A DNA stretch of 64,000 nucleotides from assembly GCA_037442925.1 (NCBI GenBank), contig JBBIPG010000001.1:1368-65367 (forward strand), in the 5' to 3' direction. Under the pieces are notes generated by a model. It was not told the DNA's origin. It made no database searches and worked only from the letters and a program-made list of their open reading frames with translations. Shown in pieces: positions 1-48,062 of this stretch. This DNA comes from Candidatus Fraserbacteria bacterium. Lineage in GTDB: Bacteria; Bipolaricaulota; Bipolaricaulia; RBG-16-55-9. Within the stretch, counting starts at the first letter, position 1; every line of letters begins with the position of its first letter. The translations under genes and the position numbers were made by a program.

Positions 1-106
1 GATCAAGAGTTGCATCCTGTTGCACAGCAGCTCCAATGCTGAGCGAGCTGCCCAGGAGCACCAGGGTCACAGCCAGACCGACCAACTTGAGGTTCTTCTG
101 CAACAT
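1..106 (-). CDS. Secreted hypothetical protein, paralog of the 1364..1954 product (C-terminus cut by window edge)
   Basis: Reverse-complement of 1..106 starts ATG and translates MLQKNLKLVGLAVTLVLLGSSLSIGAAVQQDATLD, a signal peptide near-identical to the 1364..1954 product. AGGAGG SD 8 nt upstream. Confidence 0.5.
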   Translation of the reverse strand, partial: MLQKNLKLVGLAVTLVLLGSSLSIGAAVQQDATLD

Positions 107-168
107 TGTCTATCTCCTCCTTTAGGAGTTTGGGTTTAGAGAGGAGCGCTCGACTCTCCTGCCCTCAC
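78..168. repeat. 91-bp near-identical segment (copy 1) covering start codon, SD and 5' leader of the secreted-protein gene
   Basis: Matches 1926..2016 with about one mismatch, read by eye. Confidence 0.7.
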
Positions 169-193
169 GGTAGTTCCAATGGAAGGCTTTGGA

Positions 194-257
194 CCATCAA
201 AAACTCGATAGAAATAGCATCGTATTTGCGACGGATAGAGCATCAAAGATTTGATGG
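194..257. promoter_or_regulatory. Divergent promoter region with operator-like palindromes (copy 1)
   Basis: Three elements: a degenerate site near 194-211, CATCGTA-tt-TGCGACG near 218-233, and GCATCAA-AGAT-TTGATGG at 240-257. They are homologous to the array at 2042..2105. Confidence 0.4.
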
Positions 258-325
258 ACGACGAGAACGTATGACTATATGATCGGGTTGATCTCTGTAG
301 TGAATTGAATGGAAGGGAGGGAACT

Positions 326-1291
326 ATGCTCAAGATTCTAGTGTTGGTGATTGCCGCCCTGACCCTGCTCATCTGGCAAGTGTGGCCTATGATCTATCAG
401 GCAAGTGTAACCTCCATGTGGAGCATTGGAGAGGGGACGACTCAACAGATCTCTCTTTCTGACATGAAGAAAATCGAAACTTCAGAGGGCATCATCTACT
501 ATGAGGCGGGACAGGAGCAAGTTGCCCAAGACATAGCTGAAATACTCTTCAGGAGCCGCCGATTGATTCGACAACATCTGGGAATCGATCCTCATCTGCC
601 ATCGATCGTGCTCGTCCCTCAGCAGCCTGGGGTCGGTAGTGTAATCCTCAAGGGGATTATCGCCATTCCGCTTATGGTCCCCCCCGACATGAAAAGCCTC
701 AGGGATGCTGACGCGATAACAGATCTTTTTGTTTATTGGGTGGTACCTCATGAAAGTGTAGAATTAGTAATCGCACCGATACTCTATCACGACCGTTCCA
801 GTCGCTGGATAGGAGATGGATTAGCGCAGTACGCGGGCTATCTTGTCGCTCAGGAACTCTTCCCACAAGGGCTGGAGCGGTTCATGCGTGGCGAGTATCA
901 GCGAGTGGAGGCTCTTCTCGCGCAGGGGAACAGCGTTTACGACTTGACGAGGGAATTCTTGGTCCGAAGAGCTGAATCGGAGAACTTGCTGTCGCCACGT
1001 AACCCAGAGGAGTGGGCAGGCTATGCGGTTTCCTTGGCCCTCTGGCTCGACATCGCTAGGCGCTATGGTGAGGAAGTGATTCGAGAGCTTTGGCATAGGG
1101 TGAGCCAGCTCTCTCGCTGTGTTCTATACGTCATTTGCTTGAGCCGTCCTACAGCTAAAGATGCGGCCCGCATCCTCAGCGAGTTGACCGGAGAAGATAT
1201 TTGGCATCGCATCCAAAGCATGGATCTTCAGAAGGTTCTCGAAATCCTAAAGGCAGCTGACTCTCGAAGCTTTCCCAGCGAGGCTCCCTGA
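326..1291 (+). CDS. Membrane-anchored hypothetical protein (N-terminal TM helix, about 300-aa extracytoplasmic domain)
   Basis: ORF 305..1291. Likely ATG at 326 after AAGGGAGGG SD. Hydrophobic N-terminus LKILVLVIAALTLLIW. No family recognised; an HESVE motif was noted. Confidence 0.55.
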   Translation: MLKILVLVIAALTLLIWQVWPMIYQASVTSMWSIGEGTTQQISLSDMKKIETSEGIIYYEAGQEQVAQDIAEILFRSRRLIRQHLGIDPHLPSIVLVPQQPGVGSVILKGIIAIPLMVPPDMKSLRDADAITDLFVYWVVPHESVELVIAPILYHDRSSRWIGDGLAQYAGYLVAQELFPQGLERFMRGEYQRVEALLAQGNSVYDLTREFLVRRAESENLLSPRNPEEWAGYAVSLALWLDIARRYGEEVIRELWHRVSQLSRCVLYVICLSRPTAKDAARILSELTGEDIWHRIQSMDLQKVLEILKAADSRSFPSEAP

Positions 1292-1324
1292 GTTGCTGGC
1301 TTTGGCATGACAGAAATGTGAAGA

Positions 1325-1351
1325 GGGCCAGCCGGATTCCCAAGCTGGCCC
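1325..1351. terminator. Terminator-like hairpin between convergent genes
   Basis: GGGCCAGC-N11-GCTGGCCC 8-bp stem. No clear U-tract on either side. Confidence 0.3.
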
Positions 1352-1363
1352 TCGACCGTCGAA

Positions 1364-1954
1364 CTAGAAGATTGTACCTCCGACGCAGACCTCAACGAAG
1401 AAGGGGGGAATCTCCACCTTAATGCAAACTCTGCCACTTACTATGACGCCACCTCCTCCGGCAAAGTCTCCTCCCAGACCGACTCTTACCAGAAGCTGGC
1501 CATCGCTGGGTGATCCTTTCTTAGGACCTTCTGTATCAGCTGCTGTCGAGTTTGCGGCGAACACAGGGTAGAGGCCTTTGGAGTAGATCTGGCCGTTTAT
1601 CTCCGTTGTCTGGCGCACGTAGAGTAGACCCATGAGCAGGAGGCCACGCTCGTTCTGGGTGAAGTCTTGGATCTGCTCTTTGACTTCGTCCGTCAACTTC
1701 ACGGGCACGAAGATCGCTCGTCCAAGGGGATCGATCACGGCTTTGGGAAAGTCAAACGCCCGCGGATCGTAGCCCGATGCGATCATCTGCGACAGCAATT
1801 CAGCAACTAACGCCTGTCCAGCTGCTTCGTCCGTGTTGAGCGTACCCGGATCAAGAGTCACGCCCTCTTGGGCCTGAACTGGCCAACCGCTTGAGATTCC
1901 CACAATCGCCAACGCGACTGCTAAGCCGACCAACTTGAGGTTCTGCTGCAACAT
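1364..1954 (-). CDS. Secreted hypothetical protein with Gly-rich C-terminus
   Basis: 196-aa ORF. Signal peptide MLQQNLKLVGLAVALAIVGISSGWPVQAQEG. C-terminus GLGGDFAGGGGVIVSG. AGGAGG SD. No family recognised. Confidence 0.6.
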   Translation of the reverse strand: MLQQNLKLVGLAVALAIVGISSGWPVQAQEGVTLDPGTLNTDEAAGQALVAELLSQMIASGYDPRAFDFPKAVIDPLGRAIFVPVKLTDEVKEQIQDFTQNERGLLLMGLLYVRQTTEINGQIYSKGLYPVFAANSTAADTEGPKKGSPSDGQLLVRVGLGGDFAGGGGVIVSGRVCIKVEIPPFFVEVCVGGTIF

Positions 1955-2016
1955 TGTCTATCTCCTCCTTTAGGAGTTTGGGTTTAGAGAGGAGCGCTCG
2001 ACTCTCCTGCCCTCAC
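1926..2016. repeat. 91-bp near-identical segment (copy 2)
   Basis: Matches 78..168. Confidence 0.7.
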
Positions 2017-2041
2017 AATAAGCGCAGCCAGAGTTTCCACA

Positions 2042-2105
2042 CCATCAAGTGTTTGATGGAAGAAGCATCGCACTTGCGATGGGAGAACCATCAAAGATTT
2101 GATGG
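2042..2105. promoter_or_regulatory. Array of three palindromic operator-like sites in a divergent promoter
   Basis: CCATCAA-GTGT-TTGATGG at 2042-2059, CATCGCA-CT-TGCGATG at 2066-2081, CCATCAA-AGAT-TTGATGG at 2088-2105. The two 18-bp sites are perfect inverted repeats about 46 bp apart. Confidence 0.5.
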
Positions 2106-2180
2106 ACAAGGTGTAACTATGTGTATATGATGGATACACGTCCTCTACGGAATTGAATCGAAAGGAACTAAAGGGAGGTG

Positions 2181-2381
2181 ATGAGAGTGCAACGTTCTCA
2201 AGCCAAGAACGACTGGCAGCTCACAGTCTATATTCCCAAGACGCTGCGTGGCGAAGATCCCATCATGCAGTTGAAGCATTTGGCTCTGAGTAAGCGGCGG
2301 TCGGTCAACTTCCTGGTCGTCGAAGCCATCCGTAAGTATGTGCAAGAAATGCAACATCAGAACCCACTTGAGCAGGGATGA
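2181..2381 (+). CDS. Ribbon-helix-helix (CopG/Arc/MetJ-like) DNA-binding protein
   Basis: 67-aa ORF. QLTVYIPKTLRGE (beta strand) followed by two helices (MQLKHLALSKRRS, VNFLVVEAIRKYV) fits an RHH fold. GGGAGG SD. Confidence 0.5.
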   Translation: MRVQRSQAKNDWQLTVYIPKTLRGEDPIMQLKHLALSKRRSVNFLVVEAIRKYVQEMQHQNPLEQG

Positions 2382-2573
2382 TTACTCGACTCTCACGATG
2401 CCGTGGGCAGTAGAAGTCTGAAACTGACTAACGAGACGCTCGCAGCCATGGTGGGCACAAGCCCTCAGACGGTTTCGAGTTGTTTGGGGAGACTCCAGCG
2501 CAGGGGAATCATCGCTCGTGAGCGGGGTTGGATCAGAATTCTCGAGCCAGATGGAATGGGCGCTTTTACATAA
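2382..2573 (+). pseudogene. Crp/Fnr-family HTH C-terminal remnant (no N-terminal cNMP domain, no start codon)
   Basis: Frame opens right after a TGA and reads ...LKLTNETLAAMVGTSPQTVSSCLGRLQRRGIIARERGWIRILEPDGM*, a typical Crp/Fnr C-terminal helix-turn-helix. Only about 60 codons, and no room for the sensor domain. Confidence 0.5.
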
Positions 2574-45589: not shown

Positions 45590-47064
45590 ATGCTCAAGCG
45601 TGGTCTCAGGCTTGCAGCGATACTCGGTTTCTTGTCGGTGTTGATTCTATCGGGGAGTTTTCCTGGAGTGGGGGTAATCGCAAGCGCGCAGCAAGATATT
45701 TCAGCGATCGTCGAGCGTGTCAGGCCGGCGGTCGTCGAAATCGTGACGGATAAGGGGCAAGGGAGCGGATTTATCATCACATCGGATGGGGCAGTTCTCA
45801 CTGCTTACCACGTCGTGCGGGGAGCCAGCAGCATCGAAGCTCGGTTGCCGAATGGCTCAAGCTACAGAGCAACTGTAGGAAGTATGATGAGACGTATGAC
45901 CGTGGGGGCAGCGATCTGGCCTTGCTGAGGGTAAGCGCCAGCGGCCTTCCCACAGTGAGCTTAGGCGACTCGGATACCATCAGGATTGGGCACTCCATCA
46001 TCGTCATGGGCTATCCCTTGGGTATGGGTTTTCTTGTTGGCACCGGAAACATTAGTGGCAGTGTGGATTTTGGCGGTGGGCGCACAGTCTTTGTAATTGA
46101 TGCTGCCGTCAACCCAGGCAACAGCGGCGGACCGCTCCTCAATGATGAAGGTGATGTTATTGGAGTCGTCTTCGGCAGGGCCGATGTCCCCGGGATCAGG
46201 GTGGAGGGAATCAACTTCGCTACCCCAATAAACACTGCCAAGCGTGAGTTGAGACTAAACGTACCCACTGTGCACACCCTCACCCTCGGCCACAACAGCA
46301 CAGTCCTGTCAGTAGTGTTCAGCCCCGACGGACGGCTGCTCGCCTCCGGCTCCGTGTTCTGGGACAGTAGCACGTGGAGAGGAGAGATCAAGCTGTGGGA
46401 TGTAGCCACGGGTCAGGAGATCCGCACCATCAGCCCCAGCGGTAGCTGCACTATCGAGTGGGGGATCGCGTTCAGCCCTAACGGACAATTTCTCGCCTCC
46501 GGCTCCGGGGAAGGAGTGGTCTATTTGTGGGAGGTGGCCACGGGCCGGGAGGTCCGCACCTTAACTACTGGCAACACCTTCTCAGTCTGTTGGGTGGCCT
46601 TCAGCCCGGACGGGCGGTTACTCGCCGCCGCCACCGCCACTGACGACATCAAACTGTGGGAGGTGGCCACGGGTCAGGAGATCCGCACTCTCACTGGCCA
46701 CACCTACGGTGTCCATCAAGTAGCCTTCAGTCCTGACGGAAAGTTCCTCGCTTCCGGTGCTGGTGACTATACTATCAAGCTGTGGGAGGTGACCACGGGC
46801 AAAGAGGTGCACACACTCTCCGGTCACACTGGGTCGGTGTACTCCGTAGCCTTCAGCCCAGATGGGAAGCAGCTCGCCTCAGGTTCCTGGGACGAGACAA
46901 TCAAGCTGTGGGCTGTGGCCACAGGACAAGAAGTTTGCACCCTCACAGGGCACACCGACCAGGTCAATTCGGTAGCCTACAGTCCCGATGGGAGGCTCCT
47001 TGCCTCCGCTGGCTATATGGACCATACGATTAAGCTCTGGAACATCACTGCACTGTCAGGGTGA
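45590..47064 (+). pseudogene. Secreted trypsin-like (S1/HtrA-type) serine protease fused to WD40 repeats, interrupted by a -1 frameshift near 45880
   Basis: ORF 45590..45928 carries signal peptide and the catalytic His (LTAYHVV). The next frame (45922..47064) continues with DLALLRV (Asp) and GNSGGPL (Ser), then 6-7 WD repeats. The two frames join at ...RATVG|KYDETYD. Confidence 0.7.
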
Positions 47065-47115: not shown

Positions 47116-47240
47116 GGCAACCCCTGCAATCACCCCTGGAACCGACCCGACGTGCCTGATGGGCAAGTGTGTCTGCCATAGATGCAAGGAAGCAACTGGC
47201 GGTCAGCAATCCGCTGTCAGCAGAGACGAAAGACTCAAAG
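47116..47240. repeat. Copy A of about 125-bp direct repeat flanking the DUF433/DUF5615 pair
   Basis: About 80% identical to 47938..48062, read by eye. Core: GTGTGTCTGCCATAGATGCAAGGAAGCAACTGGCGGTCAGCAATC. Confidence 0.6.
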
Positions 47241-47937: not shown

Positions 47938-48062
47938 GACAACCTTGGCAATCACCCCGGAACCGGCCCAGCGTGCTCGATGGGTAGGTGTGTTTGCCAT
48001 AGACGCAAGGAAGCAACTAGCGGTCAGCAATCAGCTCTCAGCTAAAGGCAAGAGCTGAAGGC
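47938..48062. repeat. Copy B of about 125-bp direct repeat
   Basis: See copy A. Confidence 0.6.

What the first reader, a model, noticed from the sequence alone, without database searches (positions are those of the whole stretch)
63..2180. Duplicated bidirectional promoter/leader module with three CCATCAA-N4-TTGATGG-type palindromes
Two loci (about 63-304 and 1925-2180) share a roughly 350-bp module. It comprises a 91-bp near-identical block (start codon, AGGAGG SD and 5' leader of a secreted-protein gene), then a roughly 75%-identical divergent promoter region.

The promoter region carries three dyad-symmetric sites. In copy 2 these are CCATCAA-GTGT-TTGATGG, CATCGCA-CT-TGCGATG and CCATCAA-AGAT-TTGATGG, with the two 18-mers about 46 bp apart (about 4.4 helical turns). 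Copy 1 keeps the third site nearly intact (GCATCAAAGATTTGATGG) and degenerate versions of the others.

The module drives different divergent genes in the two copies: a 300-aa membrane-anchored protein in one, and an RHH protein in the other. An operator array of this regularity implies a dimeric repressor or activator acting on both secreted paralogs. The half-site ATCAA/TTGAT is the FNR/Crp half-site in swapped orientation, and a Crp/Fnr HTH remnant sits 300 bp away.
Basis: seen in the sequence. Interest (0 to 1): 0.7.

Follow-up and report, generated by a model that had tools for sequence, protein, structure and literature searches.

The report
Conserved three-palindrome operator, duplicated with its genes
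The duplicated stretch is a real two-way promoter region whose three evenly spaced palindromes are conserved in distant relatives next to the same pair of regulator genes, so it is very probably their private operator: a tidy but fairly ordinary kind of bacterial gene switch with an unreported motif.

Summary
Window 45-326 and 1893-2170 are paralogous. A 91-bp block differs at 1 base; the operator part is 74% identical. Copy 2 carries three 18-bp palindromes at 2042, 2065 and 2088, exactly 23 bp apart.

The array is a phylogenetic footprint. Four further lineages were found through the neighbouring regulator proteins, not through the motif. All have the same A-B-A array (A = ATCAA-N4-TTGAT, B = ATCGS-N4-SCGAT) at 23.0-bp spacing. 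Half-sites are 90% invariant, spacers 6%.

The array always lies between a secreted-protein gene and a ribbon-helix-helix (RHH) gene followed by a Crp/Fnr-type gene. In three of those loci a CPBP protease gene follows the secreted-protein gene.

P3 is centred at about -41.5 of a near-consensus promoter for the RHH operon. P1 is centred at about -42.5 of a weak secreted-gene promoter that has no -35.

Best reading: a dedicated operator for the two local regulators. I infer the Fnr-like protein acts at the A sites as a class-II-type activator and the RHH at B. Which protein binds which site is untested.

The window's Crp remnant comes from a 535-bp deletion; a 99%-identical sister genome has the intact gene and a third module copy. 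No wider regulon was seen.

The parts
2..106 (-). 5' end (35 codons) of the copy-1 secreted-protein paralogue; it runs off the window
   Evidence: Translation MLQKNLKLVGLAVTLVLLGSSLSIGAAVQQDATLD is identical to the N-terminus of family member P0015, 220 aa.
78..168 (.). Near-identical block, copy 1: first 9 codons, Shine-Dalgarno, predicted leader and start-site region
   Evidence: 1 mismatch in 91 against 1926-2016.
167..172 (-). Predicted weak -10 (TACCGT) of the copy-1 secreted-gene promoter
   Evidence: T-12, A-11 and T-7 are invariant at fixed distance from P1 in five lineages. The consensus scan found no minus-strand promoter.
194..211 (.). P1', a degenerate A site (core ATCAAAAACTCGAT)
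217..234 (.). P2', a degenerate B site (core ATCGTATTTGCGAC)
240..257 (.). P3', an intact A site (core ATCAAAGATTTGAT)
255..283 (+). Sigma-70-like promoter (TGGACG, 17-nt spacer, TATGAT) for the 321-aa gene; the -35 abuts P3'
326..1291 (+). 321-aa N-terminally anchored protein of unknown family, recruited to the copy-1 module
   Evidence: No Pfam, NCBIfam, PADLOC or PDB match. Only 76% identical to the sister-genome allele.
1364..1954 (-). 196-aa secreted-protein paralogue (P0001), the copy-2 target gene
   Evidence: Signal-peptide-like N-terminus. The family has 29 representatives in 1.84 billion proteins.
1926..2016 (.). Near-identical block, copy 2
2015..2020 (-). Predicted weak -10 (TATTGT) of the secreted-gene promoter. 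There is no -35. P1 is centred at about -42.5.
   Evidence: invariant T, A, T positions; computed from coordinates.
2042..2059 (.). P1, an A-type palindrome CCATCAAGTGTTTGATGG
2065..2082 (.). P2, a B-type palindrome GCATCGCACTTGCGATGG
   Evidence: It shows a symmetric G/C swap relative to ATCGGATATCCGAT in L026, L027 and L028.
2088..2105 (.). P3, an A-type palindrome CCATCAAAGATTTGATGG, centred at about -41.5 of the RHH promoter
2103..2131 (+). Near-consensus sigma-70-like promoter (TGGACA, 17-nt spacer, TATGAT) of the RHH/Fnr-like operon
   Evidence: Equivalent -35 and -10 elements are present in L026, L027, L028 and L030.
2181..2381 (+). 66-aa ribbon-helix-helix protein (CopG-like)
   Evidence: Profile hit to PDB CopG-family RHH 9kkd, E=3e-6. 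The beta-strand NDWQLTVYIP is invariant in orthologues.
2376..2386 (.). Junction of a 535-bp deletion that removed the sensor domain of the Fnr-like gene
   Evidence: BLAST of L025 against the window: L025 9034-9568 is absent and the flanks overlap by 11 bp.
2403..2573 (+). Remnant of the Crp/Fnr-type regulator (helix-turn-helix domain only)
   Evidence: Pfam HTH_Crp_2, E=2e-14. The intact 231-aa version is in L025.

Best explanation
The three palindromes are a conserved A-B-A operator array in the shared control region of two back-to-back promoters. One promoter drives a secreted-protein gene; ancestrally a CPBP/Rce1-like membrane protease gene followed it. The other drives an operon encoding a small ribbon-helix-helix (RHH) protein and an Fnr-like Crp-family regulator. 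That regulator has a conserved N-terminal C-X4-C plus CYWLC cysteine set.

The array is the private operator of these two local regulators.

Inferred mechanism:
- The Fnr-like dimer binds the two A sites (ATCAA-N4-TTGAT).
- From P1, centred near -42, it activates the weak secreted-gene promoter, which lacks a -35, in class-II fashion.
- From P3, centred at -41.5 and abutting the -35, it autoregulates the strong RHH promoter.
- The RHH binds the central B site (ATCGS-N4-SCGAT), between the two Fnr-like dimers, as a repressor or anti-activator.

In this species the secreted gene was duplicated together with its control region, giving three copies. Patchy gene conversion keeps parts of the copies nearly identical. 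In the window's strain a 535-bp deletion has destroyed the Fnr-like gene.

Shown: the conservation, spacing, positions and gene neighbourhood. Inferred: which protein binds which site, and the sign of regulation.
For: (1) Loci chosen by protein homology to the Crp or the RHH, not by the motif, carry the same array. L026, L027, L028 and L030 each have A, B and A cores at exactly 23.0-bp centre spacing.

(2) Footprint across five lineages: half-site positions are 90% invariant, central N4 33%, spacers 6%, flanks 14%.

(3) P2 shows a symmetric change (ATCGG..CCGAT vs ATCGC..GCGAT) that keeps the dyad.

(4) The RHH-then-Crp gene order is conserved in L025, L026, L027, L028, L030, L044 and L048. 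The secreted gene lies across the array in L025, L026 and L028. A CPBP gene follows the secreted gene in L002, L026 and L028.

(5) The DNA-reading elements of both regulators are conserved: the RHH beta-strand NDWQLTVYIP and the Crp recognition helix GTSPQTVSSCL.

(6) Geometry. The plus-strand promoter is TGGACA, 17 nt, TATGAT, which puts the P3 centre at -41.5. The minus-strand TANNNT has T-12, A-11 and T-7 invariant at fixed distance from P1, which puts the P1 centre at -42.5. No -35 was found there.

(7) Perfect A sites occur nowhere else in 122 kb, which fits a local regulator.

(8) Relaxation where function is lost. Copy 3 has no divergent gene; it carries a P3 mutation and a 5-bp insertion in the plus-strand promoter spacer.

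(9) Half-sites diverge more slowly than their surroundings between window copies 1 and 2 (3/30 vs 38/85, p=7e-4).
Against: No binding or transcription data exist. Start sites are predicted only from hexamers.

The assignment of A to the Fnr-like protein and B to the RHH rests on geometry and on the general habit of the two families. All three sites share ATC-N8-GAT, so one protein could bind all of them.

The 23-bp spacing puts neighbouring dyads about 68 degrees out of phase. That does not obviously favour contacts between bound proteins.

The RHH promoter is near-consensus, so activation from P3 is not needed.

The Fnr-like gene is disrupted in the window (deletion), L030 (frameshift) and L046 (split). 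It may therefore be dispensable, although sequencing error is not excluded for the last two.

Only about 64 kb of this genome could be scanned for further sites.
Confidence: 0.6

Rival explanations
1. The RHH alone binds all three palindromes, as dimers of dimers on ATC-N8-GAT. It represses both promoters, which is classical RHH autoregulation. The Fnr-like protein acts elsewhere or through another, unrecognised site.
For: RHH proteins are typically autorepressors encoded next to their operators (general knowledge). The RHH is the first gene after the array in every lineage. Its beta-strand is invariant. All three sites share ATC-N8-GAT. The array is intact in a strain whose Fnr-like gene is deleted. 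P3 abuts the -35 of a strong promoter.
Against: It does not explain why the outer and middle sites are consistently different classes in five lineages. It does not explain why the secreted-gene promoter has no -35 and only a minimal -10 at a fixed distance from P1. The deletion is so recent (98.9% identity) that operator decay would not yet show.
Confidence: 0.2
2. The Fnr-like regulator alone binds all three sites, with A and B as different affinity classes. The RHH has another role, for example as a partner or antagonist that does not bind this DNA.
For: A 14-bp dyad whose conserved outer triplets are 8 bp apart has the footprint size of Crp/Fnr/NtcA sites (general knowledge). The outer sites sit at class-II positions. 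The recognition helix is conserved.
Against: Three Crp-family dimers packed at 23-bp spacing would be sterically tight. The conserved A/B distinction and the conserved RHH beta-strand would then lack a purpose.
Confidence: 0.12
3. The palindromes are sites of a global regulator encoded elsewhere, and the adjacency to the RHH and Crp genes is incidental.
For: Only about 64 kb of this genome could be searched. Copies 1 and 3 function away from the regulator genes.
Against: The array lies next to the RHH-Crp pair in five diverged lineages. No perfect A site lies outside an array in 122 kb. No paper in the library used the motif strings ATCAA-N4-TTGAT, ATCAANNNNTTGAT or ATCAAN4TTGAT.
Confidence: 0.05
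4. The duplication is an assembly artefact, or the module is part of a mobile element, phage immunity region or plasmid partition site.
For: The 91-bp block is nearly identical. The 17-18-bp dyads at 23-bp spacing resemble lambda OR. RHH proteins also serve as centromere binders (general knowledge).
Against: The copies differ outside the block. An independent Logan contig spans the unique segment between the repeats. A sister genome carries copies 2 and 3. There is no match in phage or plasmid records. The single viral-contig match lacks a palindromic B site and a P1 site and reads as chance. There are no PADLOC hits. The flanking genes are chromosomal core genes: pyrF, trkAH, infB, dnaE. No ParA or ParM was seen among the genes called around the array in the related loci.
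Confidence: 0.03

Closest known systems
Class II CRP/FNR-dependent promoters (activator dyad centred at -41.5)
   Same: A Crp/Fnr-family regulator is encoded alongside. The site is a 14-bp dyad with the 5-N4-5 layout. P1 and P3 are centred at about -42.5 and -41.5 of the two promoters. The secreted-gene promoter lacks a -35, like activator-dependent promoters.
   Different: The half-sites read ATCAA...TTGAT, the inverse of FNR's TTGAT...ATCAA. The recognition helix is PQTVSS instead of CRP's RETVGR or FNR's VETISR, as I recall those sequences. The cysteine pattern is C-X4-C plus C-X3-C, not the FNR pattern. Positions are predicted, not mapped.
CytR-CRP anti-activation complexes of E. coli (deoP2, cdd): a second regulator bound between two CRP sites. 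From my own knowledge of the literature.
   Same: Two sites of one class flank a central site of another class, and two different regulators are available. One outer site is at about -41.
   Different: The outer sites are 46 bp apart rather than 52-53 bp. The central candidate binder is an RHH, not a LacI-family protein. The region serves two divergent promoters. No interaction has been shown.
Lambda OR1-OR2-OR3 tripartite operator between PR and PRM. From my own knowledge.
   Same: Three 17-18-bp dyads at 23-24-bp spacing lie between divergent promoters. One of the promoters drives the regulator gene. One site lies near -42 of that promoter.
   Different: There are no cI/Cro-type proteins and no phage context (the one viral-contig match reads as chance). 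The sites fall into two sequence classes. The promoters are back-to-back, about 130 bp apart, rather than overlapping the operators.
Autoregulated RHH operators (Arc, Mnt, CopG)
   Same: A small CopG-like RHH is encoded immediately downstream of palindromic operators that touch its own -35.
   Different: The operon has a second regulator. There are three spaced dyads of two kinds rather than a single operator. There is no Pfam RHH hit at E<=0.1.
Myxosortase/MYXO-CTERM-type sorting pairs (CPBP protease plus a Cys-bearing C-terminal tail). From my own knowledge of the NCBIfam family descriptions. This concerns the regulated genes only.
   Same: A CPBP/Rce1-like gene follows the secreted-protein gene. 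Many family members end in a G/P-rich linker, a Cys, a hydrophobic stretch and a terminal Cys.
   Different: All Mrt subfamily models score below their cut-offs. No C-terminal sorting-domain model matches. The window's own paralogues (P0001, P0015) lack the hydrophobic tail and the CPBP neighbour.

Membership tests
Crp/Fnr family regulator (the neighbouring gene) | N-terminal cNMP-binding-type beta-roll plus C-terminal Crp-type helix-turn-helix | tested here: met
   The L025 231-aa protein hits PF00027 at E=1.5e-15 and PF13545 at E=4.9e-15. PDB relatives include 4ev0, NtcA and FNR. In the window itself only the helix-turn-helix survives.
FNR-type operator | TTGAT-N4-ATCAA dyad | tested here: not met
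   The sites read ATCAA-N4-TTGAT and ATCGS-N4-SCGAT, so half-site orientation is inverted.
FNR-type oxygen sensor | Four-cysteine [4Fe-4S] ligand set (E. coli C20, C23, C29, C122) | tested here: inconclusive
   A different pattern is present: C-X4-C near the N-terminus plus CYWLC in the beta-roll. It is conserved in most orthologues, but L028 has SWFWLC. Cofactor binding is not testable here.
Class II activator-dependent promoter | Activator dyad centred at about -41.5 of a mapped start site, with a weak or absent -35 | tested here: inconclusive
   Predicted centres are -41.5 (P3) and -42.5 (P1), taken from -10 hexamers. No start sites are mapped. P3's promoter has a good -35.
Ribbon-helix-helix (CopG/Arc/MetJ) superfamily | N-terminal beta-strand followed by two helices, with sequence similarity to known RHH proteins | tested here: met
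   A profile of three orthologues hits PDB CopG-family RHH proteins: 9kkd at E=3e-6, 6iya at 3e-5, 7etr at 8e-5. Pfam gives no hit at E<=0.1, so this member is divergent.
Type II toxin-antitoxin (RelB-like antitoxin) | Score above the model cut-off and an adjacent toxin gene | tested here: not met
   NF048017 scores 20-24 bits against a cut-off of 50. The downstream gene is a Crp-family regulator, not a toxin.
Phage immunity-region tripartite operator | cI/Cro-type repressors and a prophage context | tested here: not met
   No phage record match. One viral-contig match, judged chance because it lacks a palindromic B site and a P1 site. Chromosomal core neighbours.
Structured 5' leader or riboswitch | A fold more stable than shuffles, covariation, or an Rfam match | tested here: not met
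   Fold z-score -0.06. 0 compensatory pairs and a positive covariation term. No Rfam hit in the window.
Myxosortase-type CPBP sorting system (the regulated genes) | CPBP protease above an Mrt-family cut-off plus a recognised C-terminal sorting domain | tested here: not met
   PF02517 is met at E=2.5e-22, but all Mrt models score below cut-off. No sorting-domain model hits. The resemblance is by tail composition only.

The most novel reading that the evidence does not exclude
A composite 'sandwich' operator. Two dimers of a cysteine-sensing Fnr-like activator with an unreported specificity (ATCAA-N4-TTGAT) sit at class-II positions of two divergent promoters. A CopG-like RHH binds the fixed central ATCG-type dyad as an anti-activator. 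Together they control an undescribed secreted-protein family that carries a Cys-bearing hydrophobic tail processed by a dedicated CPBP protease. The control region plus signal-peptide end is copied and homogenised among paralogues.
Probability: 0.25. Interest if true: 0.6.

Novelty: new variant of a known kind. Interest (0 to 1): 0.42.

Why it matters
It provides a ready-made, testable cis-regulatory code for an uncultivated lineage. One related locus (L026) is from Yellowstone's Chocolate Pots hot spring, per PMC6137239.

What is defined:
- a motif
- a fixed 23-bp geometry
- two candidate regulators whose DNA-reading elements are conserved
- natural loss-of-function alleles of one of the regulators

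If the dual-regulator reading holds, it adds a new binding specificity to the Crp/Fnr family. It would also be an RHH-based counterpart to CRP-CytR-type composite operators.

It also flags a small, unannotated secreted-protein/CPBP-protease cassette whose function is unknown.

In itself, an operator array next to its own regulators is ordinary bacterial gene control.

Tried and rejected
- RNA leader or riboswitch reading of the 91-bp block: rejected. No Rfam hit, a fold no better than shuffles and no covariation.
- Genome-collection scan for three CATC-N8-GATG sites at 23-bp spacing. The one non-Prevotellaceae hit I opened (L009, Trueperaceae) is an unrelated 23-bp tandem repeat. Most other hits are Prevotellaceae/Bacteroides loci with matches at a 69-bp period that look repeat-like; they were not opened. 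The pattern was also too strict for relatives whose outer bases are TATC..GATA.
- Viral scan for the B-A pair: one non-palindromic coding-region hit, judged chance.
- Phage and plasmid BLAST: nothing. PADLOC: nothing.
- AlphaFold model of the 196-aa protein: mean pLDDT 38, unusable, so no fold search was run.
- Function of the 321-aa protein: no Pfam, NCBIfam or PDB match.
- Organism name: accession and sample searches in the paper library identified only the L026 sample. The phylum is undetermined.
- Look-up of the copy-1 product P0015: not on record.
- More distant RHH relatives (33-47% identity, 13 loci) carry no array, so the motif is specific to the orthologous group.
- Covariation between the regulators' reading residues and the sites: uninformative, because both reading elements are essentially invariant.
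- An apparent 12-bp palindrome in the leader proved on re-reading to be only the 8-mer GAGCGCTC.
Full report
**1. The observation**

Window 1-340 and 1850-2200 align without gaps at an offset of 1848 bp.
- Positions 78-168 and 1926-2016 differ at 1 of 91 bases.
- This block holds the first nine codons, the AGGAGG Shine-Dalgarno and the leader of two minus-strand genes with ATGs at 106 and 1954.
- After about 24 diverged bases, 193-283 and 2041-2131 are 74% identical.
- Similarity runs on to about 318/2166, just before the start codons of the plus-strand genes.

Copy 2 has three 18-bp palindromes at 2042-2059, 2065-2082 and 2088-2105. All fit CATC-N8-GATG and their starts are exactly 23 bp apart. 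Copy 1 keeps the third core perfectly. The first has one mismatch, and the second has two half-site mismatches plus one central difference.

The 18-mer pattern with up to 2 mismatches occurs 4 times in the window against 0.21 expected.

**2. Not an artefact**

- The copies differ outside the 91-bp block.
- A Logan assembly of run SRR11582170 gives an 1837-bp contig. It corresponds to window 139-1975, the unique segment bounded by the repeated block.
- A sister genome, GCA_037444325.1, is 98.9% identical over 9 kb. It carries copy 2 in the same place (L025). It also carries a third copy on another contig, upstream of a 229-aa paralogue (L002).

**3. The neighbourhood and the regulators**

In L025 the plus-strand operon reads as a 66-aa protein followed by an intact Crp/Fnr-family gene.
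- The intact gene has PF00027 and PF13545.
- With its upstream in-frame start it encodes 231 aa.
- It carries C-X4-C near the N-terminus and CYWLC in the beta-roll.

The window lacks L025 9034-9568. This is a 535-bp deletion with 11 bp of overlap at the junction.

The 66-aa protein is a divergent CopG-like ribbon-helix-helix (RHH) protein. A profile hits PDB entry 9kkd at E=3e-6. Pfam gives no hit.

**4. Comparative test**

Homologues of the Crp-family protein and of the RHH were used to fetch loci without reference to the DNA motif. Four further lineages hold the upstream region:
- L026: Crp 94% identical, from the Chocolate Pots hot spring metagenome (PMC6137239)
- L027: Crp 51% identical
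- L028 (with L029): Crp 41% identical
- L030: RHH 68% identical

Every one has ATCAA-N4-TTGAT, then ATCGG-N4-CCGAT, then ATCAA-N4-TTGAT, with centres 23.0 bp apart.

In an ungapped five-lineage alignment anchored on the middle site, the fraction of invariant positions is:

| Region | Invariant |
|---|---|
| Half-sites | 90% |
| Central N4 | 33% |
| Spacers between sites | 6% |
| Flanks | 14% |

The middle site is always the ATCG type and the outer sites always the ATCAA type. In the window clade the middle site changed symmetrically (GG..CC to GC..GC). Thirteen more distant RHH relatives have no array. Perfect A cores occur only inside arrays in 122 kb examined.

Between the window's own two copies, half-sites have 3/30 mismatches against 38/85 elsewhere (p=7e-4).

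These results make protein binding to the dyads the only reasonable reading. They also tie the array to the RHH/Fnr-like orthologous group.

**5. Promoter geometry**

The consensus scan finds TGGACA, a 17-nt spacer and TATGAT at 2103-2131, and TGGACG, 17 nt and TATGAT at 255-283. Equivalent near-consensus elements follow P3 in all lineages. The P3 centre therefore lies at -41.5, and its last base is the first base of the -35.

On the other side no consensus promoter is found. However, a TANNNT hexamer has T-12, A-11 and T-7 invariant at a fixed distance from P1, while the bases between are free. That puts the P1 centre at about -42.5 of a promoter without a -35. All of these positions are predictions.

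**6. Mechanism**

Class-II placement at a promoter lacking a -35 is the hallmark of Crp/Fnr activators. RHH proteins are mostly repressors. These are general properties of the two families, from my own knowledge.

I therefore favour this model:
- The Fnr-like dimer binds the A sites. It activates the secreted-gene promoter from P1 and autoregulates from P3.
- The RHH binds the central B site as a repressor or anti-activator. This layout resembles CRP-CytR-CRP.

The opposite assignment would put the Fnr-like protein at -64.5 for both promoters, which is off-phase for class-I activation.

The alternatives cannot be excluded: RHH alone, Fnr-like alone, or a distant global regulator. Both reading elements are invariant, namely NDWQLTVYIP in the RHH and GTSPQTVSSCL in the Crp, so covariation gives no discrimination. 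The FNR site proper (TTGAT-N4-ATCAA) is not present.

**7. Duplication history**

- In L026 and L028 the secreted gene is followed by a CPBP/Rce1-like protease gene.
- In the window's species that pair sits with copy 3 (L002). Copy 2 keeps the regulators. Copy 1 has captured an unrelated 321-aa membrane protein gene.
- Copy 3 has no divergent gene. It carries a P3 mutation and a 5-bp insertion in the plus-strand promoter spacer.
- Within one genome, copies 2 and 3 are 100% identical across the operator. They are 93-97% identical in the leader and 80-88% in the first ~100 nt of coding sequence, then 40-65%.
- Copies 1 and 2 show the reverse pattern: the leader is 99% identical and the operator 74%.

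Such patchwork points to gene conversion. The leader shows no structural signal: fold z-score -0.06, no compensatory pairs and no Rfam match.

**8. The targets**

The secreted protein belongs to a small family with no annotation: 29 representatives in 1.84 billion proteins, and no NCBIfam, Pfam or PADLOC hit. The structure model was unusable.

**9. Verdict**

This is a real, conserved, dedicated operator array with an unreported motif and a fixed A-B-A geometry, duplicated along with its target genes. It is a new variant of a familiar kind of control region. The binding assignments remain to be tested.

Noticed in passing
L002 3081-4847; L026 3461-5253; L028 3550-5138; proteins P0002, P0013, P0021, P0023, P0030: Many members of the secreted-protein family end in a Gly/Pro-rich linker, an [AG]-C-[AV] motif, about 25-30 hydrophobic residues and a terminal Cys. 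In L002, L026 and L028 the gene is followed by a CPBP/Rce1-like protease gene. This could be an undescribed Cys-bearing C-terminal sorting signal with its own processing protease. No NCBIfam model matches.
   Followed up: partly
window 2376-2386; L030 537-1266; L046 179-784: The Fnr-like regulator is disrupted in three different ways in three genomes: a 535-bp deletion in the window, a frameshift at a poly-G run in L030, and a split into 75 + 120 aa in L046. This may be recurrent loss, phase variation or sequencing error.
   Followed up: partly
window about 417-1449: The window and the sister genome are 98.9% identical from the right-hand side as far as about 1449, inside the 3' end of the 196-aa gene. 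Beyond that, the 321-aa gene is only 76% identical. This looks like a recombination breakpoint and a strain-variable segment.
   Followed up: partly
window 144-151 and 1992-1999: An 8-bp palindrome GAGCGCTC lies just downstream of the predicted secreted-gene start site. It is also present in L026 and L030, and as GAGCGCTT in L002. There is no RNA covariation, so it could be a further DNA site or a start-region element.
   Followed up: partly
window 302-318 and 2149-2166: A GAAYTGAA..GAAAGGA motif in the plus-strand 5' UTR is conserved in all lineages. It is also present in copy 3, which has no downstream gene.
   Followed up: no
window 46317-47014: Six or so tandem 126-129-bp repeats lie inside an ORF whose N-terminal part resembles HtrA-type serine proteases. 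I read the repeats as WD40-like, but no WD40 model was run.
   Followed up: no
window 47134-47221 and 47955-48042: An 88-bp direct repeat, 85% identical, with copies 821 bp apart in an apparently non-coding stretch.
   Followed up: no
window 1-64000: No tRNA or any other Rfam family reaches its gathering score in 64 kb of core chromosome that includes dnaE, infB, pyrF and trkAH.
   Followed up: no
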